Source: a virus
Lineage: Duplodnaviria; Caudoviricetes
IMG/VR virus record: IMGVR_UViG_3300047567_000025
Location: 128,001 to 192,000 of that record
Length of the DNA: 64,000 nt
Reading direction: 5' to 3' (one strand)
Positions 1,305-64,000 of the stretch are shown here, one piece after another. How positions within the stretch are numbered: position 1 is the stretch's first letter; each line of letters begins with the position of its first letter. The translations under genes and the position numbers were made by a program. The notes under the pieces are model-generated. The model made no database searches, was not told where the DNA came from, and saw only the letters and a program-made list of their open reading frames with translations.

Positions 1305-2474
1305 TTAATCTGCGATGCAGTTAAGTACTAATGTGTCAGCAGCAACAACTGGTTCACTAGTCCATGTACCGTTGCCTCTTAAAAATGTGCCTTGGTAACC
1401 TGCAGCTGGTATTGGAACTAAACCAGCTGTACCTGCAGAACCTGCGGTTGCACCTGTAAAAATATTATATGTTGTATCTTGTGCCGGTATTCCAAGTCCT
1501 GTTATATCTGCTTTCGCGATAGCTTCTGATCCTGTAACATGTCCTTGTGCATCATATTTGACTTTAAGAAGTGACGCTGTTGTTACTGCTGAAACCGAAT
1601 TGCTATGATTAATAGTTGTTCCTGATTTAGATAATCCGGAACCAGCTGTAGTAATAGCACCATCAATATTAGTTTGTGCTACTGTCCAGTCTGCATTAAC
1701 ATTACCAGTTCCTGCTCTATCAACAAGAGCGATAATTAAATCTCCTACCTCACAAGTGGCTCCAGCATAAGTTCCTGCTGTTATAACTCGATATGTCCAA
1801 CCTATGTTATATGTCGTAGGAAGTGCTGTAATAGTACCACTGGTACCGAGAGTTCCTTTGAATATCATAGCATCACTTGCAGCAATTCCGCTTGATATAG
1901 CTGACTGAACAAACGCAGTTGTTGCTAGTTGTGTTGTATTTGTTCCAGCGGCAGCTGTTGGTGCTGTTGGAGTTCCAGTAAACGCAGGACTTGCTATAGC
2001 AGCTAAAGATGCTATAGTGTGATATAAGTTTGTAACCTCTGTAATTGCATGTGTATGTGTTTTGGCAGCATAATTAGTAGCAATATCAGTGATGTTTGCA
2101 ACAGTATGTGTATGTGATGCTGTCGCATATGCTGTACTTGCTGTATATGCAGCTGTTCCAAGACCGTGTACTGTAACCGGAGTAGCAGTACCGCCATTTA
2201 CTGAGACATTAAACTTTCCGTTTGTAGTTCCTTCACTAAAAGTATATGTTGTATCAGTGTACTCAGCTCCAGCAGGAACATCAGAATTTACAGTATGTCC
2301 ATTTACTGTTGCTGCATCCCCAGTCCAAACGACAGAATTAAAATCAGTAAACCATTTGGAGATTTTACCAAGGCTGTTTGCAAGGTTTTCACCAGATGCG
2401 ATATTATCAGTATGAGTGGTTGCCGTTGTAAATGTAAAGTATGCTTTAACATTATCAAAAGTTTTTGTTGACAT
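1305..2474 (-). CDS. Tail fibre protein
   Basis: Contains SPAFTGTPTAPTAAAGTNTTQLATTAFV, HTH repeats and GLVPIPAAG..FLRGNGTW motifs typical of phage fibres. Confidence 0.8.
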   Translation of the reverse strand: MSTKTFDNVKAYFTFTTATTHTDNIASGENLANSLGKISKWFTDFNSVVWTGDAATVNGHTVNSDVPAGAEYTDTTYTFSEGTTNGKFNVSVNGGTATPVTVHGLGTAAYTASTAYATASHTHTVANITDIATNYAAKTHTHAITEVTNLYHTIASLAAIASPAFTGTPTAPTAAAGTNTTQLATTAFVQSAISSGIAASDAMIFKGTLGTSGTITALPTTYNIGWTYRVITAGTYAGATCEVGDLIIALVDRAGTGNVNADWTVAQTNIDGAITTAGSGLSKSGTTINHSNSVSAVTTASLLKVKYDAQGHVTGSEAIAKADITGLGIPAQDTTYNIFTGATAGSAGTAGLVPIPAAGYQGTFLRGNGTWTSEPVVAADTLVLNCIAD

Positions 2475-2495
2475 AATTCAATTCCTTTCTAATTA

Positions 2496-3161
2496 CTAAC
2501 GACAGTTAAGCGTCAAGTCGTCAGTAGACTTTATGTAATCACTATTGATCAAATCGAGTGTTGATTTATCTTCAGCACTATATGACGCTGTCGTTTTGTC
2601 CAATATATCTTTGTTAATATGCTTGTGTATCTGTCCGGAATTAATAAAATCATTTAATCGCACATCAATCTTTCCAATTTGTTCGTCGACATATTTTATT
2701 TTTGCATATTCCGAAAGATCTATATGAGTATTCGTTGTACCCAGCAGTTCCCATTTCAAATCAACAGACCAGATATACTCACCGAGGATAGTTTCCTTAT
2801 TGACAACTTCTGGAGAATCAACAACAAACCATACATCACCAATAAGATTTCCTTCTTGTGGCAATTCATATTTTGTTTGTTTTTTACCACATATTCTCAT
2901 TATATTGCCGATATTATTTATCGCTGCGGTAATTAATGATTTAGTTTCATCTTTAGTGAAATAATTTGTTAAGTCGATCTGATCTGTTACATATGGCAGT
3001 TCAATAAAGTTTTTATTTCCCTCACCAATCTTTATATTAGTCTTCCCTGTTGGTGTTAGCTCGACACATAGAACACCTGTTGGGATAATTTGATATTGAA
3101 AAGAACTTCTAGACCATTGTTCTGATGTACGCACGATATGTGTTAAGTCTTCTTGTGCCAC
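2496..3161 (-). CDS. Tail-associated protein with an Mtd_N/hyaluronidase-N-like N-terminal domain
   Basis: N-terminus RTSEQW..IIPTGVLCVE..TNIKIGEGNKNFIELPY resembles the Mtd-N-type fibre anchor; HKHINKDILDK fibre motif. Confidence 0.6.
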   Translation of the reverse strand: MAQEDLTHIVRTSEQWSRSSFQYQIIPTGVLCVELTPTGKTNIKIGEGNKNFIELPYVTDQIDLTNYFTKDETKSLITAAINNIGNIMRICGKKQTKYELPQEGNLIGDVWFVVDSPEVVNKETILGEYIWSVDLKWELLGTTNTHIDLSEYAKIKYVDEQIGKIDVRLNDFINSGQIHKHINKDILDKTTASYSAEDKSTLDLINSDYIKSTDDLTLNCR

Positions 3162-3195
3162 GATAATCTAACACCTCTTTCACTAATGCATTCAA

Positions 3196-4332
3196 TTACA
3201 CAGATGACTTTTCTAGTGCTGTTACGCGCACATCAAGTGATGCTATGTTGGTTTTATTAGTATTAATCAAATTACTGTGATCGGTTAATGTTGTATTGAT
3301 AGTATTGATAGCTGCTGCTGTTTTTACATCATCAGCAGTCAGTGATGTTATATCGCTCTTAAGCTGAGTAATCTCTGATAAAAATGTAGCATTCTCTGCT
3401 TTGAGTGTTTCAATAGAAGCTTTTAAATCAGCAATAACAGCTTCTGTCGGCTCATTAAGTGCCTCCCATACAGTGAATGTGTTTTCAGTCGATATAACAT
3501 TTGACATATATGCATTAAAAGAAACTTTCAGTCGTGTAGTTAGATTTGACTGGAATGCAAATGCTTTATTGATATCACATGATGCTATTAAAAGCTCACC
3601 GTCTGCTGTTGTATTAACAATCGTCTCATGCTGTATGGCAATCTTTGCGTTCGTATTAATAAATTGATAATATGGATTTAAACCTTCTGAAATATGACTC
3701 TGTGTATCGATATAATCAACATATGCTTCTATCTTAGTAAGCGTTAAAGTATATAATCCCTGATAATCCATTGCCGGAATATTTGTAACAAGTAAATTTG
3801 TGCAAGACGTTACAAGATAATCATCAATATCAGTTGCATGTAATTTCATATCATGTGATGTTACAATTTCAGAGTCCTCTCGTATTGTTCCGCCTTGTGA
3901 ATCTGTTATTGTATAATATAACTTGAATTTTGTAAAAGATTTCACAACAGGAAGAATACCATTTAATGTTTTATATTTATTTTGCATTATTTGTACGAGA
4001 TAATGATTCATGACAGCATTAGCATTGTGTGAATTTGTCATATCAAATGTTGCTTGAAGATTAAGGCATGAGTCTTCTGGTCGTTGCACAACTTTTGTGA
4101 TTATATTTTCTGATACGGAAGTAAACTGTCCATATTTAACAGATGTATTATCATAAACATATGGAATACTATTTACAATTGTGAATGCATTTTCTTTCAT
4201 AAAACCACTAGCGTTATGTGCCGGCGGTGGTGGCGGTGGAACCATGTGTTTGCAGCAATCACAATTATAATGATTATTATTCATGAATGGAAATGAAGGA
4301 TTTCCACATTCACATTGTGACATATTATACAT
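3196..4332 (-). CDS. Hypothetical virion/tail protein with C-terminal coiled coil
   Basis: 378 aa; Cys/Pro-rich N-terminus; heptad-rich C-terminus ending RVTALEK. Confidence 0.5.
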   Translation of the reverse strand: MYNMSQCECGNPSFPFMNNNHYNCDCCKHMVPPPPPPAHNASGFMKENAFTIVNSIPYVYDNTSVKYGQFTSVSENIITKVVQRPEDSCLNLQATFDMTNSHNANAVMNHYLVQIMQNKYKTLNGILPVVKSFTKFKLYYTITDSQGGTIREDSEIVTSHDMKLHATDIDDYLVTSCTNLLVTNIPAMDYQGLYTLTLTKIEAYVDYIDTQSHISEGLNPYYQFINTNAKIAIQHETIVNTTADGELLIASCDINKAFAFQSNLTTRLKVSFNAYMSNVISTENTFTVWEALNEPTEAVIADLKASIETLKAENATFLSEITQLKSDITSLTADDVKTAAAINTINTTLTDHSNLINTNKTNIASLDVRVTALEKSSV

Positions 4333-4349: not shown

Positions 4350-5630
4350 TTATTTGATTTTTAATGTTTGTTTAATAATATAAATGATAATAGGTGTCCA
4401 TAAATATATCTCTTTTGACATAGAATTGTCAAATAATTGGTCACCTGTATAGAGTGACAATTTGCTTATATCAGTAATCTTGCCATGAATAAAGTCATGA
4501 ATTATTGATATATAATCGTATCGCTTTAACTTGTAATGCGAAATACATTCATTTTTAAGAGCACAGCATGGACAGTCACATATATGACATTGCCGTGTGT
4601 CATATTCATTCTCAAGTATTGAATGCACTTCAAATGGAAAAAATCTATCGCATCGTTCTGAATTACACCATGCATCGTCAGGTATCATTACGTCAACATC
4701 AGCACCATATCGAGCAAATGATGAATCAGTGTAATCATATCCTTTCATAGTATGATATTTAAATGTCTCTAGATATCTCAACGGTGCATCACGCTCAATC
4801 CATTTATATGGTGATTTCTGATACAACATGTCGATTCGTGGATCATTAACTTTGTTATTGTTTAATACAATATTACCATTAGAATCATCACGAATCATAA
4901 TACCGTGTTTTCCCATAAATGTATTTCCACATAAATCAAACAGTGATACTCCATCTAGATGACAAATAAAGCAGTTATGTATTTTGTCATAAAACTGTGC
5001 TATATATGATTCAATCATATCATTTGTCATTGATATCAATCTTGATCGGAGTTCATAATCTTCTTTACCAATTATAGGTGTTAGATCATTACCGCCTATC
5101 GTTTGAAGATCCATTACATATTCACTGACAGTCTGTCTTTTTAGATGATTAATGTCATCTTCATTTGTTGAGAATAAGCTATATGAAATCTTATACGATC
5201 CATCTGTATTAAGGCCATCCTGCATAACTTGTGTAACACGCATTAAATGATTCATTCGTAAATGATTTACTATAAAAAAATCATTCTCTCGTGGCATTAC
5301 AGTACCGGGTATTATAAAAGCATCGCCATTTAAATTATAATTCCGAACTTGTGTTGTAGATGCATTTCCTTCTTCAGGATTTAATGGTGAAAAACCCAAC
5401 AGAATCATATTTTCAATTCTATTATATCTCAACGGGGAGTCTGCACCAAGTATCTGATAAGCATCTCCCATTCCTAATGATGTTGATGTTTGCGCATCAT
5501 TACAACTGAAATATGTCACAATGGTTCTTCCACTGCCGGTATATTTATTTATACGGCTATGTAGAAACTTATCATATTTATACATTTGGGAATCAACTAA
5601 TGCATTCTCATCATATATCAAACCAGCCAA
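4350..5630 (-). CDS. Jumbo-phage hypothetical, probably structural protein
   Basis: 426 aa ORF with TTG start and SD GAAAGGA at the head of the tail-gene run. Confidence 0.5.
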   Translation of the reverse strand: MAGLIYDENALVDSQMYKYDKFLHSRINKYTGSGRTIVTYFSCNDAQTSTSLGMGDAYQILGADSPLRYNRIENMILLGFSPLNPEEGNASTTQVRNYNLNGDAFIIPGTVMPRENDFFIVNHLRMNHLMRVTQVMQDGLNTDGSYKISYSLFSTNEDDINHLKRQTVSEYVMDLQTIGGNDLTPIIGKEDYELRSRLISMTNDMIESYIAQFYDKIHNCFICHLDGVSLFDLCGNTFMGKHGIMIRDDSNGNIVLNNNKVNDPRIDMLYQKSPYKWIERDAPLRYLETFKYHTMKGYDYTDSSFARYGADVDVMIPDDAWCNSERCDRFFPFEVHSILENEYDTRQCHICDCPCCALKNECISHYKLKRYDYISIIHDFIHGKITDISKLSLYTGDQLFDNSMSKEIYLWTPIIIYIIKQTLKIK

Positions 5631-5704
5631 TTAAATCAGTCCTTTCTTCTGTAATTTGAATAGTGCATAGTTCTATCCATGATTATGAAGCGGTTTCACT
5701 ATAC

Positions 5705-6428
5705 TACATTTCTATTTCTATTTTTTTATTTTCTAAACATATATTTTTATAATGTAGGGGTTGATGTAATATAGTGATAATTACATCAATGGAAAAGTTG
5801 TGATATTAGATAATTAAAGATTAGAAAGCTAAGTAAGTAAGCTAATATTACATTTCTATTTCTATTTCTATTTTTTTATTTTCTAAACATATATTTTTAT
5901 AATGTAGGGGTTGATGTAATATAGTGATAATTACATCAGTGGAAAAGGTGTGATATTAGACTAATTAAAGATTAGAAAGCTAATAAGCTAATATTACATT
6001 TCTATTTCTATTTTTTTATTTTCTAAACATATATTTTTATAATGTAGGGGTTGATGTAATATAGTGATAATTACATCAGTGGAAAGAGTTGTGATATTAG
6101 ATAATTAAAGATTAGAAAGCTAAGTAAGCTTAATAAGCTAATATTACATTTCTATTTCTATTTCTATTTTTTTATTTTCTAAACATATATTTTTATAATG
6201 TATTGATGTAATATAGTGATAATTACATCTGGAAAAGTTGTGATATTAGATAATTAAAGATTAGAAAGCTAATAAGCTAATATTACATTTCTATTTCTAT
6301 TTTTTTATTTTCTAAACATATATTTTTATAATGTAGGGGTTGATGTAATATAGTGATAATTACATCAGTGAAAGAGGTGAGGATATTAGATAATTAAAGA
6401 TTAGAAAGCTAAGTAAGCTAATACTACA
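5705..6428 (+). repeat. Cluster 1 of a ~145-bp dispersed repeat family (5 tandem copies)
   Basis: Core TTTTCTAAACATATATTTTTATAATGTAGGGGTTGATGTAATATAGTGATAATTACATC recurs at ~5731, 5881, 6021, 6177 and 6310; the 4th copy lacks GGGG. Confidence 0.97.
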
Positions 6429-6443
6429 GAAAGAAGGTATCAT

Positions 6444-7643
6444 TTGATTATGAATGAAGAACAGAAATATGTTACACCAATAGAAGAGCTTGATAAGATA
6501 ATCGAGCAAATAGATATGGGTATTGAGCCAATGATGACTGATCAGATGTCACTGGAAGTAAAGCTTCGTTATAAAGAACTGCAGAATGAATTATTTGACG
6601 AAGATGATTCGAATGATGTTGATGTTCAGCGACATCGTGAAATGATGAAAGAACATATCGCAAAAAAGAAAAGAGAAGCAACAAAACAAGATGTATTGAT
6701 AATCTCATTATCAGATGAACAGAAAAGAAAACTTAGAGCTGATATGGAAACCTCTATAGTTCGTAGTAATCCCAATATACAATATAACATACCTGATGAA
6801 AAACTATATTCATCAGAGGAATTACGAATTGTAAGACAGAAATTATCTAGAATCAAAAATTGCTATTACAATCAGATCGATTACATTAATGCGGTTAGTA
6901 TTGTGAGAGAAGCAATTGATTATTCATTACGTAGTGACTATCCTTGGATGTCTAGAGAGGAAGCTGTCAAAGCTTTTAATTCTGGCGAAATAAAATTCTC
7001 TTATTGTAACATGCCTAAATTATTTATTAACTATCAAACGCAGATAACTGATCCTGAAATACTTAAGGGAATTGTAACAGGAGACGTTATTCTCAAGGAC
7101 AAAAATGATACGGCTGAATTTAAGAGTAAGAAAAACGAGAAGTGTAATCCAATTAATGCCGAGTATAATATAACTGGCGATACAGAATATAACGAAATGC
7201 TCAGCCTTCATAAACAGGGCTATGATACTCCTATGTCTGTTGTTATTAAATCAAAATCAACGGTATATAATAGATATGCATTACCATCATCAAATCGATT
7301 TGCTATTGGTAATAATAAAGATAATATTAACGATAAATCGATATTGTTTGATTGGTCTAAGCCTGGAGCAGGCAAAGATTATTATAATTTTATTCATAAT
7401 AAGAAATATCAAGTATCAGAAATAATTCATGACATTAATGATGATAATGATGGCTTATTAAATAATATTGTATCAACCAATGCTATACAATTTCTTGGCA
7501 GTATGACTAATGATCCAAATAAGTATACAAATAGCTATAATGATAATAACTTCATATCGACATCATTACATGTTAATCAAGAAGCAGCACAGGTTGAGCA
7601 TGATATTTTAAATGCAATAAGAGCTAATAATCCAACGAAATAA
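6444..7643 (+). CDS. Hypothetical protein (399 aa)
   Basis: Long ORF with SD GAAAGAAGG immediately after repeat cluster 1. Confidence 0.75.
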   Translation: MIMNEEQKYVTPIEELDKIIEQIDMGIEPMMTDQMSLEVKLRYKELQNELFDEDDSNDVDVQRHREMMKEHIAKKKREATKQDVLIISLSDEQKRKLRADMETSIVRSNPNIQYNIPDEKLYSSEELRIVRQKLSRIKNCYYNQIDYINAVSIVREAIDYSLRSDYPWMSREEAVKAFNSGEIKFSYCNMPKLFINYQTQITDPEILKGIVTGDVILKDKNDTAEFKSKKNEKCNPINAEYNITGDTEYNEMLSLHKQGYDTPMSVVIKSKSTVYNRYALPSSNRFAIGNNKDNINDKSILFDWSKPGAGKDYYNFIHNKKYQVSEIIHDINDDNDGLLNNIVSTNAIQFLGSMTNDPNKYTNSYNDNNFISTSLHVNQEAAQVEHDILNAIRANNPTK

Positions 7644-7654
7644 AAATTATATTT

Positions 7655-7700
7655 AATGCAATAACATCTTATTTGTGAGATGTTATTGCATTTATTTTTT
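7655..7700. terminator. Terminator-like hairpin after 6444..7643
   Basis: AATGCAATAACATCT...AGATGTTATTGCATT followed by a T-run. Confidence 0.6.
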
Positions 7701-7859
7701 TTAGTAAGTACAATCATATAATATCCGTTAGGATATTGATTTCTTTTCATTAGTATTCTGGTATATTTCATATGCCAGAAGAATTCCTCCATTCTTCTTT
7801 TTTATATTCAATCGGGGCAATATGCCCCGATTGTATTATTATTACATTTTTTCTATGCT

Positions 7860-7919: not shown

Positions 7920-7941
7920 AAATATATATTATTAATATGAA
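7920..7941 (+). promoter_or_regulatory. Putative phage early promoter motif AAATATATATTATTAATATGAA
   Basis: Identical at 22600-22621 and 34897-34918; similar motifs on the minus strand at 22481-22502, 44616-44634 and 53782-53800; resembles the TATATTAC-type early promoter of phiKZ. Confidence 0.65.
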
Positions 7942-8012: not shown

Positions 8013-8971
8013 ATGAATGATTATTTAACAATAGTAAATGGAGTAGTAATTGATTGCAATACTACTGATGTAACTGATGTTGTTATTCCTGATGGAGTAA
8101 CATCTATAGGAGACCGTGCTTTTAGATTTCATAAAAGTCTTGAATCAATTACAATCCCTGATAGCGTTACATCTATAGAAAATAGTGTTTTCTATAGATG
8201 TGAAAGTCTCAAAAGCATTGAAATCCCCAATAGCGTAACAACTATTGGGAACTATGCTTTTGCATATTGTAAAAGCCTTAAAAGCGTTATCATTCCTAAT
8301 AGCGTTAAAACTATAAAAGAGGGCTCATAGATGTGAAAGTCTCAAAAGCATTGAAATCCCCAATAGCGTAACAACTATTGGGAAATGCTTTTGCATATTG
8401 TGAAAATCTTAAAAACATCACAATCCCTAATAGTGTTACACATATTGAGGGTAGTGCTTTTGAAGGTTGCTTTAATCTTGAAAGTATTATTATTCCTAAT
8501 AGCGTTACATCTATAGAAAATAGTGTTTTCTATAGATGTGAAAGTCTCAAAAGCATTGAAATCCCCAATAGCGTAACAACTATTGGGAACTATGCTTTTG
8601 CATATTGTGAAAATCTTAAAAACATCACAATCCCTAATAGCGTTACATCTATAGAAAATAGTGTTTTCTATGAATGTGAAAGTCTTGAAGAAATTACAAT
8701 CCCTAATAGTGTTACAACTATAGAAGATATGGTGTTTGAAGGTTGCTCTAATCTTAAAACAATTACAATCCCTAACAGCGTTAAGCTTATAGGAGACGGT
8801 GCTTTTGCATATTGTAAAAGTCTTAAAAGCATTACAATCCCTAATAGCGTAACATCTATAAACATTGAAGCTTTCTATGGCCGTGCAAATGTCGTGATTC
8901 ACTGTTATAAAAATTCATATGCAGAGGAATATGCAAAGAAAAATAATATTCCTTACAAGATTATTGATTAA
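8010..8971 (+). pseudogene. BspA-type leucine-rich-repeat (LRR_5) gene broken into pieces (8010..8330 and 8378..8971)
   Basis: Repeats [22 protein letters not shown]; C-terminus [20 protein letters not shown]; frame changes near 8327 and 8383. Confidence 0.85.
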
Positions 8972-9242: not shown

Positions 9243-9265
9243 TAAATAAAAAAATAAAAGTAGGA

Positions 9266-9305
9266 ACGGGGGCTGTTGCCCCCGTCACCGAAATTATTTT
9301 TTTAT
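9266..9305. terminator. Bidirectional terminator ending accessory cassette A
   Basis: ACGGGGGC-tgtt-GCCCCCGT with A/T tracts; flanks nearly identical to those at 23378-23418. Confidence 0.8.
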
Positions 9306-16311: not shown

Positions 16312-16613
16312 ATTTCTATTTCTATTTTTTTATTTTCTAAACATATATTTTTATAATGTAGGGGTTGATGTAATATAGTGATAATTACATCAATGGAAAA
16401 GGTGAGGATATTAGACTAATTAAAGATTAGAAAGCTAAATAAGCTAATAAGCTTAATAAGCTAATATTACTATTTCTTAATTTCTATTTTTTTATTTTCT
16501 AAACATATATTTTTATAATGTAGGGGTTGATGTAATATAGTGATAATTACATCAATGGAAAAGTTGTGATATTAACTAATTAAAGATTAGAAAGCTAAGT
16601 AAGCTAATATTAC
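16312..16613 (+). repeat. Cluster 2 of the ~145-bp repeat (2 copies)
   Basis: Same core at ~16335 and ~16497. Confidence 0.97.
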
Positions 16614-16643
16614 AAATATAATACTAAAAGGAGTAAATAAGTA

Positions 16644-17003
16644 ATGTATGATTTGACGTTTAAAGTTAAGCAACATGGAACATATCAGGGAATGACGTAT
16701 ATTATATTTTCATCGGCATCCGGATACTATAGATGCTATATAGGAATTCCCCAAAAGCAATGGCATGATGAAATCATCTATACTAAATTTAATAAAAGAA
16801 TGACTATAGGTGATAGATTTCTCAAAAGGCAATATCCCAATTTATCATTAAAAGATATTGATAATATTTGGATGTGTTTTGTTGCAAATAGTGATACTTC
16901 ATATGATAATTATGATAACACAAAAGATTTTGACCGATATATGTTGCATGAATGTCATGATGTGATAAATCGTATCATAGATGTTACCGATAATGCACAT
17001 TGA
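16644..17003 (+). CDS. Hypothetical protein (119 aa)
   Basis: SD AAGGAG; follows repeat cluster 2. Confidence 0.7.
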   Translation: MYDLTFKVKQHGTYQGMTYIIFSSASGYYRCYIGIPQKQWHDEIIYTKFNKRMTIGDRFLKRQYPNLSLKDIDNIWMCFVANSDTSYDNYDNTKDFDRYMLHECHDVINRIIDVTDNAH

Positions 17004-17015
17004 CAAAAAATATGT

Positions 17016-17040
17016 ATTGGGGGCTTAATAGCCCCCAATA
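17016..17040. terminator. Bidirectional terminator
   Basis: TATTGGGGGCT-taat-AGCCCCCAATA between convergent genes. Confidence 0.8.
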
Positions 17041-17043
17041 TAA

Positions 17044-20000
17044 TTATTTACTTTCCCATATTTTTCGCATTTTATTTTTTGTTTCAATCAAGACTTTGTT
17101 TGCTGATGCTGTTATCATTACAGAAGGTATCATACGTTTAAATATCGATGCTGGTGCAACAAACATAGATATTTCCTCTTCAGGCTTTCCCTCAGCATAA
17201 GGTTCAAGTCCTTCTGGAATTACCTCTGAAATTATTTGCTTAGAAGCACCATATGCAACTGCTTTATCACCAGTTGATGCTTCATCACTATGCTCAATAT
17301 ATATTTCGATAAGAATATCACATGTTATTCCTTTTATAGTAGATCCTTTTAGTGGTTCTGTTGGTAAAGAATATAATGTATCCAGCTTATATACCGAATC
17401 ACTTTTATCATATTTATCAAGTATTTTTCTTTTTCGTTTATTTGTGTTGAAATAATCCTCAAATAATTTAAATAGTGAAGGCGACAACTTGTCCATACTT
17501 TTAACAGTATACATACGGACATCAACAACAGTACCTGCATGTTTAGCCTTCATGATTCGTTTTGCTGCGTTAATTATATTATTATTATTAGATTTATCGG
17601 TATTATTTTGAAATGCTTTAAGAAAATTATCAACAGAGGTATCACCTGTATTTCCCAAGCCAAATACAATTAATGGATCATTGATTTCAACTTCGTCACC
17701 AACTTTTACAATTGATTCAATATCATCTGTTACATCTATTTTCATAGACTCCATCATCGTTAAATTTGTTTTAAGAAGCTTTGACATCTTTGTTGTAATA
17801 ATACCAGCATCTTCGTATGTTGAATATATACCAGTAAAAGCAATTTTTGCCATAGGTCCAATATTCATACGAACAAGTCCTGCAGAATCCTTATGGAAGA
17901 ACTTCTCATGATATGCTAATATGTCATTCTTTTTAAATTTATCATTAACTTCGAAATTTGATTGTAACCTATTATTTACATAAAAGCCGGAGCCTGTATT
18001 GAATGAATATTTATTATCAACGTTGATAGCTTGTTTCTTGCCATTCTTATACTGTACGACCATATATCCATCTGCAATTTCTAGTACAGTTCCATCATCT
18101 TGTGCTGTTACTGCAAATTCATCTGATAGATATGTTGGTACGATTTCATCAACTCCATTAGAAACGATAGCTGGTTCAGCACCATCTGTTGATAGGATAT
18201 GCGATGTTTGTGATGTAGCGATTGCTGTACGAATAGAATCATCTCGTGTTACCGTTCCAGGTGTCAATAATTCTGAGAATGATGCTAATTGTAAATCATT
18301 GAAATCTGTTTCAATTCCATCTGTTGACGTATATCCTCTGACAGATTCTATTTTTGGGTCAGCAACAAGCTGTCTTGTTATACCAACCGTACCATTATTA
18401 GGTGATGATATTGCCATTTTACCAATCATGGTGCTATCATATGTTCGCTTATCAAGTGAATATGCACGATCGTCATTTACACCTTTGAAACCTTTCTTAG
18501 TTATATTCTCTTTTGAATGCAATTCGACCATTGGATTTAAAGCTGATGATGGCTCAACGTTTGGAACTGCCAATAATTCATTAATTACTTCATTTGGATT
18601 AAATGCTAATGAATTACCACGTGTTTTAGAGCCAATATTATTATTGTATCTTGAGATTGCAACTGCTAATCTGTAATGTATTATAGCAGGGATTATTTCA
18701 GATGAGCGTATACGATACAACGATGAGGCATTCTCATTAGTATAGTTATTATCAGCTAATAAATTTGATGCATATATCAACATTCCAGTTATATCATTCG
18801 GAATATTATAATGACTACATACATCTTCAGTTATAGCATCAACAAAGAAATTATAATATGTAATAAATGTTGTTAGCTGTGAATACTGTTTAAAGAATTG
18901 CTGATTGAATATATCGACAAATACAGAATTAGTATTCATGATTGGAATATCAAAATCAGACACATTAAATGCTTTAGTATTAATACGATAGAAACCATTA
19001 AAGATTAATTGATTTGCTATAGTATTTGCTATGGCAAGCGTTTTATCCTTAAATGGAATACGTAAATAACCCGTATCATCAAAAGAACTATCAACAAATT
19101 GATATTTACATCCAGCTTTTTTTAGTATAGTGCTTAAACCTTCCCATGCTGTTATTGCAACACCTAATGGTACTGTTACACCAATCGTAATTTCAGAAAT
19201 ACATTGAAAGCTTTCCTGGTTTGATTTTTTTATATGTCCCTTTAAGTTCATCTGGTAAAGTATTAAATATAACGTCAGTTAAAGTTATGCCATCTCTAGT
19301 CAATCCTGTTTCTGTGTTAATAACAATTGGTACTTTATTAATCATGCCACAGCAGAACTCATTGTTTTGGACATTTACAAATGTATATGATTTTAAACAT
19401 TGCTGTCTGTTAAAGTATATTTCACATGCACTATCTGTATTAATATATGAAAACCATTTTCTTGCATATTCATCATATTCTATCGTGGAAACGAACCTAG
19501 AATTTGCAGATGTTGAAGATCCATTTTTTACATATTTATTACGACCGGATTCATCAGTTGCTGATTCGATTGTTTTCATCATAATGCTTAAATCAACCAA
19601 TGATCTAGTGTCATACCTATTGACTGTAATCTTATTGTAGTTACTCGTTAAAATAACTTTTTTCTTATTTATTTTGAGTATTGGTATAGGAAAATCTTGC
19701 TTTCCAATATTATACCAAATTCCATTATTATAAAACCTACCATTCATTACTCTTGGAACTCGTATATTTATAATCGATTGCATTCCAGATTGTTTATTTT
19801 TTAGAGTAACCTTCCAGTTATTTGTTAATGAAGTAATCGTACTAACATCAGTAACTTCGACATTAGTCACATAAAATCCATCTGGCAATTTCGAAAGATT
19901 CATAAAGGTAGCTACAATATCTCTATCCATAAGATTATCTTCATATGCTTTTGATATATTTGCAAAAGATGAGCCTCTTACAGAACCTCTATTCGTTGTC

Positions 20001-21331
20001 GTTATTTTCAATGGTGTTAATGGTGCTGGTTTTGGTATATCTGTTATAGATGTGAGTTTATTAAATGTCACATTGTTTAATTTAAGCTGTCCAATTTGCG
20101 TTCTAATCTTTAGCTCTCGTGCAGATGTTGTTGTATTCATAACATTTGTAGCATTTATAGGAGAAGCATCCTTTTCAATCTTTTTAGAAGCGTCTTTTAT
20201 TAGTTTTTCTTCAACCGGATTATCTGACGAATTAATCAATTCTTCTGTAAGTTTCTTATAATTGCTGATGGAATCACTATCAGGAGTTATACGATGAATT
20301 AACTCAGCATTGATATTCAATGTCTTCGCGTTATATAAACTATTTGGTGTACTAATATTATCGTTAAGATGATTTGTTTTGCCATATTTAGCTGCTAATA
20401 ATTCAATTGATGATTTAACAGAATCTGCTGTTGATTTGTTTGATTCTTTAACACCAACGATTTCACCATCTTCTATATCAACATCATCAAGTGAATCAGA
20501 ACTATCATCATCATCAGTATCACCATCATTTTCCGTTGAAAATGAATCTATACTATCACCTGCTTCTTCATTGCTAGTAGCACTCATTTCCATAGGTTTT
20601 CCTATTTCATTAATAACCGATTTTAATTGAATTATATCATTATTATTTAATAATGATAAATCTAATCGATAATCAGCATCTGGTGATCGGAATATAATTA
20701 TAATTGGTAATGGCTTAATCATATCACGATTGTTAAGAATATATGCAGAAAGCAATGCATTGATAACATCTGTTTTGAATGTACTTCTTATTGGATTCTG
20801 ATATATACCAAATCTCTTTGTATCTATAATAAGTACTTTCTGTTTAGAAAAGTTAAATATATTCATTATCTTTGAAAATATATCAAATATATTAGACTGA
20901 ATATACTCTATGCTAAATGATCTGATATGTTGTGTCATTGCTAATATTACTTCTGACATTGGTATATAAATATTATCAGTTATCGTTTTTGGATAAGGCG
21001 GCTTTATATTGGTTAATCTCGGAAGAATATTTTGAGCATTAAGATACATTAGTTTCTTATTATAATCATTTGAATTAACATTAAATCGAAATTGTTTTAT
21101 TCCAATTTTCTCATTAATATTGCTTGGGATTATGATATCTTTATAATCACTTTTAGGGGCTGGCATATGCTTTATTAATTCAATATCATATTCATAAGAA
21201 TCTGATAATAAAAATATCGAGGCATCTTTTTTTTGAGCAGGAAGCTGAAGACGCATCTTATTTGCTGATAAATTATTACCAAATGTAAAACTTGTTGCTT
21301 CTTGAAAATAATGTTTCATTAAATAAATCAC
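17044..21331 (-). CDS. Multisubunit RNA polymerase beta-like subunit (probably of the virion RNAP), interrupted by a +1 frameshift at ~19197
   Basis: C-terminal part has GDKAVAYGASKQIISEVIP (cf. RpoB GDKxxxRHGNKG) and STYEDAGII; the upstream ORF ends ...KLSMYF* while the +1 frame continues SEITIGVTVPLG. Confidence 0.8.
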
Positions 21332-22467: not shown

Positions 22468-22703
22468 TGTATCACTTCCTTTCATATTAATAATATATTT
22501 TTCAAATCGCAAAAAAATATTATTGCATTTTTTCTATGCTTAGAGGGAGCGTAAAAGAAGGAATGGTTGGATTGATTATTCCTATTATTTTAACTTTTCA
22601 AATATATATTATTAATATGAATAAAAGAATAACAATCGATCAATAAATCAATATTTAAAAGCCATCACAGAGGTGTATTAATCTGTGAAGAAAGAGGTAT
22701 ATT

Positions 22704-32521: not shown

Positions 32522-33901
32522 ATGAAATCAGTAAGATTTAATTATGAAGTCGAATATTTGGTTGATATGATTACAAATAATGGATTCCTCATTAAGAATG
32601 ATGATAAATATTCACCAACAAATATTGACGCATTAATTAATTCATCAAATTTTATGGATTGCGAATATCGTTGTGATTGTGGTGCTTTTATCGGTCAAGA
32701 CATTATTGGTCAGATCTGTCCTAAATGCCATTCGGAAATAGCATTGCACTCACTAAATTTTCAATATACAGGATGGCTTAATCTAAGTCCACACAAAGTA
32801 ATTTCGCCAATATATTACAATATGCTTAAACGAGTCCTTGGAGTAAATATGCTAAAGTTTATTCTTGGAGACTATAAAACTGATAATTCCGTACAGTATA
32901 ACGAAAATGACGTTGACTTCGAAAATAATAAGAAGAATAAGAAGACTGGTAGAATATCACAGAACGATATAGCTTATATACAGAAGAAGATACCTAAGTC
33001 AAAATATATGTATAAGGGTATTGGTCATGATGAATTCTGTAATCGCTTTGAAGAAATAATGACAGCTTGTGCGCCTAAAAATAATGAAGAATTATCAATT
33101 CTTTTAAATGAAAAAGATGATGTATTTACATCGAAAATTCCTATATATTCAACAGCATTTCGACCTGTATCAAAAACATCAGAGACAATGTTCTATCCAA
33201 AAATAAATAAATGGTTTTCTATGATGACATCGATATATTGCAAACTTGAGGATATGGTTCTCGACATTGAAAAAATACAAGCATTAAATTTCATTCAAAA
33301 CTATTGGATTGAAGCCGTCGATTATGTTATCAAAAATGAACTGTCTAAAAAGGATGGCTTTGTCCGTTCAGAAATAGTCGGAGGAACATTTTCGTTTTCT
33401 GCTAGATCAGTCATAATTCTTGACATATCACTGAATGCAGATGAAGTTGATTTGCCGCTATCGATGGTCATGACAGCGTATCAATACAAAATAACACATC
33501 GTTTAGCTGTTAGATATAATATGACATTAGAGCAAGCATATTTGTTTGTGAATACAAATGAGAATAATGAAATTGTTATGAAAATAATTGACGAGATAAT
33601 CGCTGAAGAGCAGTGGATATTTATTCTTCGTGAGCCGACTGATAATCTCGCATCTATTGCACTTTGTAAAATACGTAATTACAAAGTCAATGATGATACA
33701 ATTTCACTACCGCCTGAACCTTTATCAGGATTCAATGCAGATTTTGATGGAGATGCTTTAAATCTAGCATTCTTACCGAAAGAAGTTGTTCCTGATTTTG
33801 AAGCATTTCACTATTCATGCATGACGAATTATGTAACTGAGAATATCAGTATTGATCTACTTTCATGGTGTGATATCTCATTAGGCAGAATGTCAGAATA
33901 A
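32522..33901 (+). CDS. RNA polymerase beta'-like subunit (N-terminal Zn-binding plus catalytic part), probably non-virion RNAP
   Basis: CDCG...CPKC Zn finger, SARSVII, LREPT and catalytic FNADFDGD. Confidence 0.92.
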   Translation: MKSVRFNYEVEYLVDMITNNGFLIKNDDKYSPTNIDALINSSNFMDCEYRCDCGAFIGQDIIGQICPKCHSEIALHSLNFQYTGWLNLSPHKVISPIYYNMLKRVLGVNMLKFILGDYKTDNSVQYNENDVDFENNKKNKKTGRISQNDIAYIQKKIPKSKYMYKGIGHDEFCNRFEEIMTACAPKNNEELSILLNEKDDVFTSKIPIYSTAFRPVSKTSETMFYPKINKWFSMMTSIYCKLEDMVLDIEKIQALNFIQNYWIEAVDYVIKNELSKKDGFVRSEIVGGTFSFSARSVIILDISLNADEVDLPLSMVMTAYQYKITHRLAVRYNMTLEQAYLFVNTNENNEIVMKIIDEIIAEEQWIFILREPTDNLASIALCKIRNYKVNDDTISLPPEPLSGFNADFDGDALNLAFLPKEVVPDFEAFHYSCMTNYVTENISIDLLSWCDISLGRMSE

Positions 33902-34427: not shown

Positions 34428-34513
34428 GCCTTTGTGGTGGAATTGGCAGACACGAGGGACTTAAAATCCCTTGATTTGATATCATACCGGTTCGAGTCCG
34501 GTCAAAGGCACCA
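34428..34513 (+). tRNA. tRNA-Leu (anticodon TAA)
   Basis: Acceptor stem GCCTTTG/CAAAGGC, D-arm GGAATTGGCAGAC, anticodon arm AGGGA-CTTAAAA-TCCCT, long variable arm, GGTTCGAGTCC, encoded CCA. Confidence 0.96.
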
Positions 34514-34880: not shown

Positions 34881-35160
34881 ATTATTTTGAATCTTTAAAT
34901 ATATATTATTAATATGAATAATAATCGAGCAAGAATACATAAATATGAAAGAAGGTGTTATTATGAATGAAATTAGTGAAATTGTCATTATTGACACAAC
35001 AGATTCAATCATTATAAATGATTAATTTTTAAATACTTTCCAAAACAGCATAAACCAACTTGCTCGATTATTATATAATAAGTAAAATATTTAAATATAA
35101 TAAATTTATTATTAAAGCAATCACAGAGCTGTATACAATCTGTGAAGAAAGAGGTATATT

Positions 35161-38205: not shown

Positions 38206-39522
38206 TTATTCTGATATATAATCATCTATATCAAATGGATTAATTTTTCCCGCATTATCAGGAGCTTTAGAAACTATCTTCAAAAGCTCTTCTTTCGCTG
38301 TTTTCATAAAGATTTTCATTGTAGCTGGGTTTTCATTAAAGTCTTGATAAACAGTTTTCCATGAAAACTTCTCTGATATTGGTTCACCTTTATCATCAAT
38401 AACACGAAATCCTGCTTTATTACCTTTGAGACGTCCTTTGTTATTAAGGAACAATATCAATGAACGAATATTATCAGCACCATTTTCACGTTTATCAATT
38501 ACAATTTGAAATCCCAAACCAGAACGTATATTTCCGCTTTCGCTTGTCGAAGACTTTGTTGGTTCAAATAAAACAGTATTGCCTTCAAATCCATCAATTT
38601 GTGTATGATATCGTGAGTCTTCTGATGTTTCTGCAGAAAGATTAATTACACCAGACGCATTATATTCAAGAGCTTTTCCTCCCGCGATTTTTTCATCATG
38701 TGCACCATACTGAAATTGCTTCTTTACACCAAATGGTCCTGAGATAACTGATGATTTATGAGAAATTACTAAAAACATTATATTTGCTTCTTTCGTCATA
38801 GGTAATATATCTCCTAAGAAGTTTCGCAGCGTCTTGGCATATTGTGCACCTGCCATATTTGATCTGAGTTCATCAATACCATCTATAGATTTTTTATCAC
38901 ATAAATCATATTCTTTTGCAATGACATCTGATATCGAATCTAAGAATACTATTGTCGGAGGCATGAGCTTTATTGGTTTATTGTGTGAGTCTCGACAACC
39001 TGTATCAGTTAGAAGTTTATCTCTATATTTACATTTTGTCTGCCATATTTCTGCTATATCATTTTGCAATGTGTCGTAACCAATTGCTCCACTTCTCAGT
39101 TTATAACGCGGACAATCTTCGTCGAACCATGAATCTGGTAATTTAGATAATGTCCTTGCACGCTGAACAACTAAACGATTCTCAGCATCATAGTGGTATA
39201 TATTTCCATTATATTTATATGCTATATTAGAGCATATTTGTATTCCTATTGTAGATTTGAATGTCTGTGTTGCTCCGGCAATAACATTAAAAGTGCCTGC
39301 TTGTAAGCCTGTGCATAAACGTTTGTCTATTATTGTGCCAGTATCATCTTTGATATTGATTTCATATCCGAAAGCATAATCAATAAGCGATATTCCTGTT
39401 GGATATGAATAATCAATCATATCATTCTTTTTAAAAATATTACTTGATCCACCATTTGACAGTATTGTCATTAAATCAGCGTCTTCAAGTTCTGACTCGA
39501 GTAAACATTTTGCTTTTGCCAT
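38206..39522 (-). CDS. RecA/UvsX-like recombinase
   Basis: PTGISLID, Walker A GATQTFKST, YDAE, Walker B VFLDSI, GGKALEYNAS. Confidence 0.85.
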   Translation of the reverse strand: MAKAKCLLESELEDADLMTILSNGGSSNIFKKNDMIDYSYPTGISLIDYAFGYEINIKDDTGTIIDKRLCTGLQAGTFNVIAGATQTFKSTIGIQICSNIAYKYNGNIYHYDAENRLVVQRARTLSKLPDSWFDEDCPRYKLRSGAIGYDTLQNDIAEIWQTKCKYRDKLLTDTGCRDSHNKPIKLMPPTIVFLDSISDVIAKEYDLCDKKSIDGIDELRSNMAGAQYAKTLRNFLGDILPMTKEANIMFLVISHKSSVISGPFGVKKQFQYGAHDEKIAGGKALEYNASGVINLSAETSEDSRYHTQIDGFEGNTVLFEPTKSSTSESGNIRSGLGFQIVIDKRENGADNIRSLILFLNNKGRLKGNKAGFRVIDDKGEPISEKFSWKTVYQDFNENPATMKIFMKTAKEELLKIVSKAPDNAGKINPFDIDDYISE

Positions 39523-54247: not shown

Positions 54248-54770
54248 TTTTTTTATTTTCTAAACATATATTTTTATAATGTAGGGGTTGATGTAATATA
54301 GTGATAATTACATCAGTGAAAGAGGTGAGGATATTAGATAATTAAAGATTAGAAAGCTAAGTAAGCTAATATTACATTTCTATTCCTTAATTTCTATTTT
54401 TTTATTTTCTAAACATATATTTTTATAATGTAGGGGTTGATGTAATATAGTGATAATTACATCAATGGAAAAGTTGTGATATTAGATAATTAAAGATTAG
54501 AAAGCTAAGTAAGCTTAATAAGCTAATTAAAGCTAATATTACATTTCTATTCCTTAATTTCTATATTTTCTAAACATATATTTTTATAATGTAGGGGTTG
54601 ATGTAATATAGTGATAATTACATCAATGGAAAAGTTGTGATATTAACTAATTAAAACTAAATAAGCTTAATAAGCTAATTAAAGCTAATATTACATTTCT
54701 ATTTCTATTTTTTTATTTTCTAAACATATATTTTTATAATGTAGGGCAGTGATGATATAGTGGTAATTAT
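54248..54770 (+). repeat. Cluster 3 of the ~145-bp repeat (3 full copies plus a degenerate 4th leading into the primase gene)
   Basis: Core at ~54258, 54407 and 54568; the copy at ~54718 diverges after TATAATGTAGGG. Confidence 0.97.
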
Positions 54771-54797
54771 GTATAGTATGAGAGGATGAAAATATGA

Positions 54798-55739
54798 ATG
54801 AATGATAAAGACATAGAGTACAAAGAGAAGCTACTAGCATCTGGTATATTCCGTAGAGTTGGTGTTAGTGAGCGATATACTTGTCAATGTCCTTTTTGCA
54901 ATGATAACAAAAGACACATGTATGTACTAATAAGACTGACTGATGATACACCATGCTTGTATCGATGTTTCAAATGTGAAGCTAAAGGTAAAATGAATAA
55001 GCAATTTTTAGAGTATTTTGGTATTGACAATATATCGATACCACGAACATCAACTCGACGTAAAATTGATATAGACAAAGCATCCACTACATCAAATCTT
55101 ACACTTGTCAATGAAAATGATACCTATAATATTAACTTTGCATGCTCATACATTGAATCAAGAGTTGGCCATTATCCATCAATAGCAGAACTTCAATATT
55201 TTCAATTTATATCAAACCCACAATCATACGCTAACGAATTTCTTGGTGATAATAAGGAATCCAATTATTTTAAAGATCGATCATGGTTTAAATTGACAAA
55301 TGGAAATATCATGGGCAGATATAAAGATGATACTACAAATTATCGTTGGCTGCGATATAAGTCTCAACGAGTTACGGATAAAGGCTTATATACTTTCAAG
55401 ATGCCATTTGATTTATATCAACCAATAAACGTATATATTGCAGAAGGTGCTTTTGATTTAATTGGCTTATATTATAATCATAAGCGTGATAATAATATTT
55501 ATATTGCATCATTAGGTAGAGACTATGTCAGTTGCATTCGATATCTCATATCTATTGGCATATTCGGAATAAGCGTCAATATATTCATATTTAAAGATGC
55601 TGATGTCCCTGCAAGTTCGATATATATCAACAAGAATATGCGATCATTATTTAACAAGATTGATATATATCAAAATATATTGGCGAAAGATTATGGTGTA
55701 ATGCCGAATGATCTTGAAATACAAAAATGCATAATATAA
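54798..55739 (+). CDS. DNA primase (DnaG/T4 gp61-like)
   Basis: CPFC...CFKC Zn-binding domain; TOPRIM AEGAFD and FKDAD; KDYG. Confidence 0.85.
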   Translation: MNDKDIEYKEKLLASGIFRRVGVSERYTCQCPFCNDNKRHMYVLIRLTDDTPCLYRCFKCEAKGKMNKQFLEYFGIDNISIPRTSTRRKIDIDKASTTSNLTLVNENDTYNINFACSYIESRVGHYPSIAELQYFQFISNPQSYANEFLGDNKESNYFKDRSWFKLTNGNIMGRYKDDTTNYRWLRYKSQRVTDKGLYTFKMPFDLYQPINVYIAEGAFDLIGLYYNHKRDNNIYIASLGRDYVSCIRYLISIGIFGISVNIFIFKDADVPASSIYINKNMRSLFNKIDIYQNILAKDYGVMPNDLEIQKCII

Positions 55740-63892: not shown

Positions 63893-64000
63893 TATTTCTT
63901 AATTTCTATTTTTTTATTTTCTAAACATATATTTTTATAATGTAGGGGTTGATGTAATATAGTGATAATTACATCAATGGAAAAGTTGTGATATTAACTA
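63893..64000 (+). repeat. Cluster 4 of the ~145-bp repeat (truncated by the window edge)
   Basis: Same core starting at ~63918. Confidence 0.95.

What the first reader, a model, noticed from the sequence alone, without database searches (positions are those of the whole stretch)
5705..6428. Dispersed tandem ~145-bp repeat family built like a multicopy small-RNA gene
Seen: 11 recognisable copies (one cut by the window edge) plus one degenerate copy, in four clusters (5705-6428 x5, 16312-16613 x2, 54248-54770 x3+1, 63893-edge), all on the + strand. Each unit has the same order. (i) AAACATATATTTTTATAATGTA, a variant of the phage's recurrent early-type promoter motif AAATATATATTATTAATATGAA. (ii) Stem-loop 1, TTGATGTAAT-9nt-ATTACATCAA (5761-5789). 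(iii) A purine-rich linker, GGAAAAG or GAAAGAGG. (iv) Stem-loop 2, TGTGATATTAG (5799-5809) pairing with CTAATATTACA (5842-5852), around a loop with a variable number of AAGCTAA-like units. (v) A (TTTCTA)n-T7 tract that would act as a terminator U-tail. No meaningful ORF lies inside. Inference: each unit is an autonomous promoter-RNA-terminator module making a ~100-nt RNA at high dose early in infection. It could act as a decoy or sponge against host defence, by analogy with phiTE pseudo-ToxI repeats or RNA anti-CRISPRs. Alternatively it is an hr-like multicopy replication origin. I do not recognise the family.
Basis: partly seen in the sequence, partly recalled or inferred. Interest (0 to 1): 0.85.

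Follow-up and report, generated by a model that had tools for sequence, protein, structure and literature searches.

The report
Tandem early-promoter cassettes in jumbo phage
An uncultivated giant phage of the AR9/PBS1 kind has multiplied one of its early-gene promoter cassettes into head-to-tail arrays (20 copies at 7 sites) in front of six genes, most likely to draw more of its injected RNA polymerase to those genes rather than to make a new small RNA.

Summary
The repeats are real. The window is part of a 212-kb jumbo-phage record with 20 copies of a 131-162-bp unit in 7 clusters. Every cluster points at, and abuts, a downstream gene.

The unit's invariant 22-mer is a variant of the AR9 virion-RNA-polymerase early promoter (AAATATATATTAT-6N-G+1, PMC5312081), and the phage encodes AR9-like split RNA polymerase subunits.

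Comparison with relatives decides the reading. The closest complete relative (G001) has no tandem repeats. It carries one early promoter cassette of the same class (T-rich tract, promoter, conserved start of the transcript) at the syntenic site of five of the six gene-proximal arrays. The arrays are therefore an in-situ, lineage-specific amplification of a promoter cassette.

- The T-tract is the promoter's conserved upstream element, not specifically a terminator tail.
- Stem-loop 2 is weak, loses pairs without compensation, and is unlike the phage's own GC-rich terminators.
- Neither stem is conserved in ten related genomes.
- Promoter plus hairpin 1 (53 columns) is invariant in all 20 copies, while the rest varies.

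The small-RNA, decoy and origin readings are not excluded, but nothing supports them. This scan had already flagged the same arrays in overlapping windows of this genome. I retrieved no note of them on other DNA.

The parts
5709..6428 (+). Array C: 5 tandem units (promoter 22-mers start at 5735, 5885, 6025, 6181, 6314). Each unit has a T-rich tract, the promoter, a GGGG run, hairpin 1, a purine-rich linker and the variable stem-loop 2.
5735..5754 (+). Example promoter: 13-mer at 5735-5747, 6-nt spacer at 5748-5753, predicted +1 G at 5754 (AR9 rule).
5761..5789 (+). Hairpin 1: a perfect 10-bp inverted repeat with a 9-nt loop, at +8 to +36 of the predicted transcript. Invariant in 19 full units.
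5799..5852 (+). Stem-loop 2: an AT-rich stem of up to 11 bp around a 27-50-nt loop that holds a variable-number 8-9-nt microsatellite.
6444..7643 (+). Gene driven by array C (399 aa, no family match), followed by a canonical terminator at 7655-7692.
16312..16614 (+). Array D: 2 units (promoters at 16339 and 16501).
16644..17003 (+). Gene driven by array D (119 aa, unknown, no orthologue in G001), followed by a bidirectional terminator at 17013-17042.
54248..54721 (+). Array E: 3 full units (promoters at 54262, 54411, 54572).
54722..54797 (+). The 'degenerate' fourth copy. This is the native primase promoter: its T-tract, promoter and first 6 transcribed bases are identical to the units, and the following leader is homologous to that of relatives.
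54798..55739 (+). DNA primase gene driven by array E.
63893..64000 (+). Cluster F: a single unit cut by the window edge. It runs to about genome position 192,030 and precedes a highly conserved 435-aa gene.
7920..7941 (+). Example of the phage's other ('class I') early promoter, an exact match to the AR9 consensus. Further copies are at 22600 and 34897.
17044..21331 (-). Two genes for split multisubunit RNA polymerase beta-like subunits. A further one lies at 32522-33901 on the + strand.

Best explanation
Each unit is a copy of this phage clade's 'class II' early promoter cassette. The cassette is a T-rich upstream tract, an AR9-type promoter for the virion-packaged multisubunit RNA polymerase (13-mer, 6 nt, G+1) and a conserved start of the transcript. 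In this one lineage the cassette, together with about 100 nt of leader, was duplicated head to tail in place. It was then homogenised between sites by recombination, so that six early genes now sit behind 1 to 6 identical co-oriented promoters. These genes are the primase, a DUF7487 endonuclease and four of unknown function.

Inferred mechanism: few polymerase molecules are injected with the DNA. Extra promoter copies therefore raise these genes' share of early initiations. Most transcripts read through the weak AU-rich stem-loop 2 into the gene. The 5'-proximal hairpin 1 and the Shine-Dalgarno-like purine tract (which has no start codon) probably stabilise the RNA, as 5' stabilisers do in Firmicutes. 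Some short leader RNAs may arise as a by-product.

Shown here: the anatomy, the promoter homology, the synteny and the lineage-specific amplification. Inferred only: promoter activity, read-through, the dosage effect and RNA stabilisation.
For: (1) The phage encodes AR9-like split RNA polymerase subunits, about 31% identical to those of Staphylococcus jumbo phages S6 and MarsHill, Listeria LPJP1 and phiR1-37.
(2) The published AR9 early consensus is AAATATATATTAT-(6N)-G+1 (PMC5312081). The phage's class I motif matches it exactly (8 copies). The unit motif matches 11 of 13 positions with the same spacing and G. An active AR9 promoter (g047) carries the C at position 4.
(3) All 7 clusters are co-oriented with, and abut, a downstream gene.
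(4) G001 is the closest complete relative (231 kb, primase 58% identical). It has no tandem repeat of period 30 or more. It has 7 dispersed single class II cassettes, and 5 of them lie at the syntenic sites of arrays A-E. Four further primase loci of relatives carry one promoter in an 83-184-bp spacer.
(5) BLAST of the unit against five relatives matches only the T-tract plus promoter.
(6) 0 of 53 columns covering promoter, GGGG and hairpin 1 carry a substitution, against 32 of 80 columns downstream (Fisher p = 4e-9).
(7) The fourth copy in array E keeps exactly the promoter and then continues as the native primase leader.
(8) G002, G004, AR9, S6 and LPJP1 have dispersed promoters only, with a minimum spacing of about 250 nt.
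Against: - No transcript data exist.
- The unit promoter changes the A in the conserved TATATTAT core to T. No such variant is among the 39 mapped AR9 promoters, and AR9's polymerase is sensitive to some single changes.
- Internal units do end in a hairpin followed by a U-rich tract, so partial termination is possible. The termination signals of this polymerase are not known.
- The invariance of hairpin 1 could reflect a DNA-binding site or recent gene conversion rather than an RNA role.
- A dosage benefit is pure inference.
Confidence: 0.58

Rival explanations
1. Autonomous multicopy small-RNA genes. Each unit makes an RNA of about 100-125 nt that ends at the U-rich tract. The RNA would be produced in bulk early in infection and act as a decoy or sponge, for example against a host defence, an RNA-binding protein or ribosomes, through its Shine-Dalgarno-like tract.
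For: Each internal unit has a promoter, two hairpins and then a U-rich tract. The last units of arrays C and D lack the T-tract before the gene. 5'UTR-derived short RNAs made by premature termination are documented in the jumbo phage 201phi2-1 (PMC11512511). The one variable pair of hairpin 1 switches between U-A and U-G, which keeps pairing in RNA only.
Against: The T-tract is the conserved upstream element of single-copy promoters in relatives that have no preceding hairpin. Stem-loop 2 is weak and variable, and it loses pairs in 8-9 of 20 copies without compensation. The body of the RNA is the least conserved part of the unit. Neither stem is conserved in relatives. There is no Rfam match. 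The hairpin 1 pattern occurs nowhere in JGI metagenomes as a CRISPR-like array. No ToxN-like neighbour was found.
Confidence: 0.15
2. A by-product of recombination with no selected function of its own. On this reading the arrays are 'empty' promoter cassettes, left by unequal crossing-over or by loss of the ORFs between neighbouring cassettes, as proposed for PeSL elements of T4-like phages. The promoters still fire, but their multiplicity is neutral.
For: Microsatellite-like variable parts, two linker types and hybrids between them, mixed among arrays, all point to frequent slippage and gene conversion. The gene behind array D has no orthologue in G001 although the cassette site is conserved, which looks like cassette-flanked cargo exchange. 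Tandem PeSLs and deletion of the DNA between them are described in PMC4122927.
Against: Amplification happened at 5 separate sites in one genome and at none in G001, G002, G004, AR9, S6 or LPJP1. Promoter plus hairpin 1 is strictly invariant while the rest drifts. About 2.9 kb of non-coding DNA is kept in a phage that packages a fixed headful.
Confidence: 0.14
3. DNA-level arrays: multicopy replication origins (a promoter plus an AT-rich unwinding region, as at T4 and T7 origins, or baculovirus hr-like elements), or operator arrays for a phage protein that binds the perfect inverted repeat of hairpin 1.
For: The 10-bp perfect palindrome is invariant, and its 7-nt core occurs three times per unit in both orientations. 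Array B lies at a local minimum of cumulative GC skew and near the centre of an 11-kb block that is inverted relative to G001. Array E precedes the primase gene.
Against: GC skew here follows gene orientation, and every array lies at a transcription start, so skew is not independent evidence. The primase adjacency is ancestral and exists in relatives without arrays. The palindrome is absent from 10 related genomes, except for one primase leader, L024. The strict co-orientation with downstream genes is not required of an origin.
Confidence: 0.1
4. Assembly artefact: a single promoter cassette at each site was inflated into tandem copies by the assembler.
For: The record comes from a short-read metagenome. 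Other assemblies of the same phage break at the repeat instead of crossing it.
Against: Units within an array differ from one another in linker type and microsatellite counts, which loops in an assembly graph do not produce. Unit-to-unit junctions are consistent across five arrays. Three other samples show the repeat is multicopy.
Confidence: 0.03

Closest known systems
Early (virion RNA polymerase) promoters of Bacillus phage AR9 / PBS1-like jumbo phages (PMC5312081; also predicted in Staphylococcus phage MarsHill, bioRxiv 10.1101/2020.12.14.422802)
   Same: An extended AT-rich 13-mer, a 6-nt spacer and a G start; position upstream of, and co-oriented with, early genes; a phage that encodes split multisubunit RNA polymerases. 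This phage's class I motif equals the AR9 consensus exactly.
   Different: The unit promoter differs at two of 13 positions, one of them in the conserved TATATTAT core. It has a conserved T-rich upstream tract and a conserved transcribed hairpin. It is tandemly amplified, whereas AR9, S6 and LPJP1 show only dispersed single promoters.
PeSL (promoter-early stem-loop) cassettes of T4-like phages (PMC2839356, PMC4122927)
   Same: A highly conserved composite regulatory cassette (AT-rich region, stem-loop, early promoter, Shine-Dalgarno sequence) repeated at many sites in a large lytic phage genome. It is linked to cargo exchange and homogenised by recombination. Tandem PeSLs are known.
   Different: PeSLs use host sigma-70 promoters, sit between ORFs, and have the stem-loop upstream acting as a terminator. 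Here the promoter is for a phage polymerase, the conserved hairpin is inside the transcript, and up to six ORF-less cassettes stand head to tail.
Tandem early promoters in front of one transcription unit (e.g. T7 A1-A2-A3; general knowledge, not checked here)
   Same: Several co-oriented strong promoters feed the same downstream genes at the very start of infection.
   Different: Those promoters are different sequences, not near-identical repeat units, and they occur at one site rather than seven.
5'UTR-derived short RNAs by premature termination in jumbo phages 201phi2-1 and phiKZ (PMC11512511)
   Same: A promoter followed closely by a possible stop signal ahead of a gene, giving short leader RNAs.
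   Different: Those are single-copy and, in one case, structurally conserved between genera. The stems here are not conserved even among close relatives.
Baculovirus homologous regions (hr); ToxI antitoxin repeats; RNA anti-CRISPRs
   Same: Dispersed tandem repeats containing a palindrome (hr); tandem non-coding repeats in a phage (ToxI, Racr).
   Different: There is no ToxN-like gene next to the arrays, the unit is 145 nt rather than 36 nt, no CRISPR-array counterpart of the hairpin was found, and origin or enhancer activity is untested.

Membership tests
AR9-type virion-RNAP early promoter | 13-mer AAATATATATTAT | tested here: inconclusive
   The unit has 11 of 13 positions. C at position 4 occurs in the active AR9 promoter g047. 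T at position 12 is not seen among the 39 mapped AR9 promoters, although syntenic primase promoters of relatives also vary at positions 11-12.
AR9-type virion-RNAP early promoter | G start exactly 6 nt after the 13-mer | tested here: met
   All 20 copies meet it, and they are collinear with G001 class II promoters.
AR9-type virion-RNAP early promoter | Lies upstream of, and co-oriented with, a gene, in a phage encoding AR9-like multisubunit RNAPs | tested here: met
   7 of 7 clusters; RNAP beta-like subunits.
AR9-type virion-RNAP early promoter | Early, protein-synthesis-independent transcription from the site | not testable with these tools
   No transcriptome is available and the host is unknown.
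Intrinsic (rho-independent) terminator | Compact GC-rich stem, short loop, U-tract directly after the stem | tested here: not met
   0 terminator-like sites in 5500-6600. Stem-loop 2 folds at -2.9 to -17 kcal/mol with 27-50-nt loops and at most 2 G-C pairs, and in type B units 3 nt separate the stem from the U-tract. The phage's own terminators are hairpins of -18 to -21 kcal/mol.
Structured RNA family (Rfam) | Match to a curated covariance model | tested here: not met
   No match at gathering score or at E up to 10.
Structured RNA (any) | Stems kept by compensatory change, or conserved in relatives | tested here: not met
   Hairpin 1: 9 of 10 pairs never vary and one switches between U-A and U-G. 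Stem 2: two pairs are lost in 8-9 of 20 copies with no compensation. Covariation is no better than in shuffles (57 of 500). The stems are absent from relatives.
PeSL cassette | Repeated composite of AT-rich tract, stem-loop, early promoter and SD, dispersed in the genome and flanking variable cargo | tested here: met
   The resemblance is in layout only.
PeSL cassette | T4-like phage with sigma-70 -35/-10 early promoter | tested here: not met
   The phage is AR9-like. The sigma-70 scan is no better than shuffles.
ToxIN-like RNA antitoxin array | Short (about 36-nt) tandem repeats directly upstream of a ToxN/AbiEii-type toxin gene | tested here: not met
   Units are 131-162 nt, each with its own promoter. 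The six downstream proteins give no such Pfam or PHROG match.
RNA anti-CRISPR (solitary repeat unit) | Hairpin mimics a host CRISPR repeat | tested here: inconclusive
   The hairpin 1 pattern gave 26 metagenome hits. 24 are unrelated single palindromes and none forms an array. The host is unknown, and only exact stems were searched.
hr-like or promoter-type replication origin | Replication initiates at the repeats | not testable with these tools
   GC skew is confounded by gene orientation.

The most novel reading that the evidence does not exclude
The arrays are more than extra promoters. Each unit would be fired by the injected polymerase within seconds of infection to make large amounts of a short hairpin RNA with an exposed Shine-Dalgarno-like tract. 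That RNA would act in trans, as a sponge for ribosomes or an RNA-binding host factor, or as an anti-defence decoy. Alternatively, the transcribed AT-rich units would form R-loops that serve as multiple replication origins. Either would be a new kind of early takeover device in jumbo phages.
Probability: 0.15. Interest if true: 0.8.

Novelty: new variant of a known kind. Interest (0 to 1): 0.48.

Why it matters
Promoters for the virion-packaged multisubunit polymerase of AR9/phiKZ-type jumbo phages are known only as dispersed single sites. How a handful of injected polymerase molecules is shared among early genes is not known. This phage offers a natural experiment: one promoter class, amplified to 2-6 identical copies at five conserved sites, next to relatives that have one copy at each. 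If copy number sets early expression, that would be a simple, evolvable dosage control for a limiting polymerase. It would also mark the six downstream genes, four of them of unknown function and one 76-79% identical across the clade, as especially important early functions.

The comparison also defines two classes of early cassette, each with its own conserved transcribed start, and a conserved T-rich upstream element. Both can be tested for polymerase recognition.

Tried and rejected
- **Rfam:** searched at gathering score on the window and at E up to 10 on the array. Nothing found except a tRNA-Leu elsewhere.
- **Cultured phages:** blastn of the unit gave no match.
- **Public collections:** exact-pattern scans of IMG/VR and JGI metagenomes recovered only near-identical strains (L022, L039, L053). 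The other 24 hairpin hits are unrelated palindromes.
- **Unit derived from the primase 5' coding region:** I tested whether the unit's variable half is a decayed copy of it. Local alignment is no better than shuffles (z about 1), so I rejected the idea.
- **Second conserved element after the last unit of arrays A and B:** it is not a genome-wide promoter, with only 2 hits at up to 3 mismatches.
- **Sigma-70 promoter reading:** hit counts equal those of shuffles.
- **Arrays as inversion end-points:** the one inversion relative to G001 has its ends about 4-6 kb away from array B, at a separate 46-nt inverted repeat.
- **Function of the downstream genes:** the 435-aa, 399-aa and 305-aa proteins gave no useful PDB match by sequence, and the 435-aa and 399-aa proteins gave no tblastn match to cultured phages. 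A single primase query found no IMG/VR relatives; an alignment was needed.
- **Hairpin 1-type palindromes in five more relatives:** none in a promoter context.

Full report
**Observation.** The window is bases 128,001-192,000 of a 212,263-bp IMG/VR virus record (GC about 31%, estimated 76% complete). Tandem Repeats Finder and direct reading confirm arrays at 5701-6428, 16312-16614 and 54247-54770, and a unit cut by the window edge at 63893.

In the whole record the exact 22-mer that opens each unit occurs 20 times in 7 clusters: 2, 6, 5, 2, 3+1 and 1 copies. The first two clusters are on the minus strand, outside the window. Units are 131-162 bp long.

Contigs from three other samples carry the same last-unit-to-gene junctions, and each breaks in or at the promoter, as expected of a real multicopy repeat. 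Units within an array differ from each other, which argues against an assembly loop. Even so, copy numbers rest on one short-read assembly.

**What the phage is.** Three ORFs in the window match phage multisubunit RNA polymerase beta-type subunits. The best cultured relatives, at about 31% identity, are Staphylococcus jumbo phages S6, MarsHill and PALS_2, Listeria LPJP1 and Yersinia phiR1-37. This is the AR9/PBS1-like group.

For AR9, transcript mapping defined 41 early promoters used by the injected virion polymerase. Their consensus is AAATATATATTAT-(6N)-G+1 (PMC5312081). The TATATTAT core recurs in MarsHill.

This phage's other recurrent motif matches that consensus exactly: 8 exact intergenic copies, all pointing at genes. 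The array unit has the same layout with two changes in the 13-mer. One of them, C at position 4, is present in an active AR9 promoter. The other, A to T in the core, is not.

**Anatomy and context.** Every cluster is co-oriented with, and abuts, a gene. The genes are a 305-aa unknown, a DUF7487 endonuclease, a 399-aa unknown, a 119-aa unknown, the DNA primase and a 435-aa protein that is 76-79% identical in relatives.

The genes after arrays C and D are monocistronic and end at strong GC-rich terminators.

In an alignment of 20 units, the 53 columns covering promoter, GGGG and hairpin 1 carry no substitution. By contrast, 32 of 80 well-occupied later columns do (p = 4e-9). Part of that contrast comes from the differing flanks of the last units.

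The linker comes in two types, one of them a near-perfect Shine-Dalgarno sequence with no start codon behind it. Hybrids between the types exist, and the types are mixed among arrays. Two microsatellites vary in copy number.

**The comparison that decides.** Primase homologues at 43-60% identity exist on long contigs. In four such loci the spacer before the primase gene is 83-184 bp and holds one AR9-type promoter preceded by a T-rich tract. None has a tandem repeat.

I fetched the closest complete relative, G001 (231,437 bp, with terminal repeats). It has no tandem repeat of period 30 or more. It has two classes of dispersed single early promoters, each with its own conserved first 10-20 transcribed bases.

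Seven class II cassettes are present in G001. By tblastn of the flanking genes, five of them lie exactly at the syntenic positions of arrays A, B, C, D and E.

The 'degenerate' fourth copy of array E is the native primase promoter. It is collinear base for base with the G001 cassette, through the T-tract, 13-mer, spacer and G and then a shared word in the leader.

BLAST of a whole unit against five relatives matches only the T-tract plus promoter. G002, G004, AR9, S6 and LPJP1 likewise have only dispersed promoters.

The arrays are therefore a lineage-specific, in-situ amplification of a conserved promoter cassette. They were later homogenised between sites.

The T-tract is the conserved upstream element of single promoters in this clade, so it needs no terminator role.

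Stem-loop 2 folds at only -2.9 to -17 kcal/mol around 27-50-nt loops. It loses one pair in 9 copies and another in 8 copies, without compensation. In type B units it does not reach the U-tract. The phage's own terminators are compact hairpins of -18 to -21 kcal/mol.

Hairpin 1 is stable (-9.9 kcal/mol, z = -3.7) but invariant, so it gives no covariation signal. It is absent from the class II leaders of G001 and from five further relatives, and recurs only in one primase leader, L024. Rfam finds nothing. It is not excluded as a lineage-specific novelty.

**Mechanism proposed (inference).** Few polymerase molecules enter with the DNA. Initiations should then be shared among promoters according to number and affinity. 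With 20 of roughly 35 early-type promoters sitting in arrays, the six downstream genes would take a large share.

Unit spacing of 131-162 bp is probably wide enough for neighbouring promoters to be occupied at once (general knowledge of polymerase footprints, not measured here).

The 5'-proximal hairpin and the start-less Shine-Dalgarno-like tract resemble 5' stabilisers described in Bacillus. I take this from general knowledge and did not check it here. Partial stopping at stem-loop 2 could add short leader RNAs, as seen in 201phi2-1.

**Rivals.**
- Autonomous small-RNA genes: 0.15.
- A neutral recombination by-product in the manner of empty PeSL cassettes: 0.14. The gene behind array D has been exchanged while the cassette site is kept.
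- DNA-level origin or operator arrays: 0.10. Array B lies near the centre of an 11-kb block that is inverted relative to G001, and at a local GC-skew minimum. However, skew follows gene orientation, and the inversion ends at a separate inverted repeat.
- Assembly artefact: 0.03.

**Novelty.** The parts are known: AR9-type early promoters, and repeated promoter cassettes of the PeSL kind. I found no description of tandem amplification of a virion-polymerase promoter cassette at several conserved sites in one genome, neither in the papers read nor in the six related or cultured genomes examined. I rate it a new variant of a known kind, of moderate interest.

Earlier first-stage notes of this scan flagged the same arrays in overlapping windows of this genome. 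I retrieved none on other DNA.

Noticed in passing
window 7920-7941, 22600-22621, 34897-34918 (and 5 more in the genome): A second, 'class I' early promoter cassette. It matches the AR9 consensus exactly and has its own T-rich upstream tract and a conserved transcribed start. G001 has the same two classes, so the first 10-20 transcribed bases are class-specific across the clade.
   Followed up: partly
G000:C1 about 92,800-103,950 (outside the window): An 11-kb block containing array B is inverted relative to the otherwise collinear genome G001. It is flanked by a 46-nt (96% identical) plus a 20-nt inverted repeat at 92,789-92,870 and 103,889-103,970, inside the 5' ends of two oppositely oriented genes.
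   Followed up: partly
L017:1763-3070 (+), just beyond the window end: The 435-aa protein behind cluster F is 76-79% identical in relatives whose primase is only 53-60% identical. It has no PHROG, Pfam, PDB or cultured-phage match. The true start is probably the Met at residue 28 of the longest ORF.
   Followed up: partly
L006:1440-1475 (-), L018:1440-1475 (-), L017:1675-1700 (+): A shared T-run plus a roughly 19-nt element follows the last unit of arrays A and B, with a variant in cluster F and in L022, just before the gene. It is not found elsewhere in the genome. Its role is unknown.
   Followed up: partly
window 8134-8860: A coding tandem repeat of 69/207-bp period (10.6 copies). Similar repeats lie at genome positions 2170-4063 and 38774-39043. 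These look like repeat-protein gene cassettes, which earlier scan notes called LRR genes.
   Followed up: no
window 17013-17042: A perfect GC-rich palindrome with T-runs on both strands between convergent genes: a bidirectional terminator. Together with 7655-7692, 7809-7833 and 9265-9286 it shows what terminators look like in this phage.
   Followed up: yes
window 34428-34513: tRNA-Leu (anticodon TAA), the only tRNA or Rfam hit in the window.
   Followed up: no
G000:C1:120,935-121,209 (outside the window): A perfect 135-bp tandem duplication (2.0 copies, 100% identical), unrelated to the promoter units.
   Followed up: no
G001 class II leaders (L086-L097; e.g. G001:C1 38,436 and 19,787 minus strand): The 7-nt word at the core of hairpin 1, or a one-base variant of it, recurs at +17 and +22/+28 in 6 of 7 class II leaders of G001. 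In G001 it occurs as direct repeats rather than as a palindrome. It may be a binding motif.
   Followed up: partly
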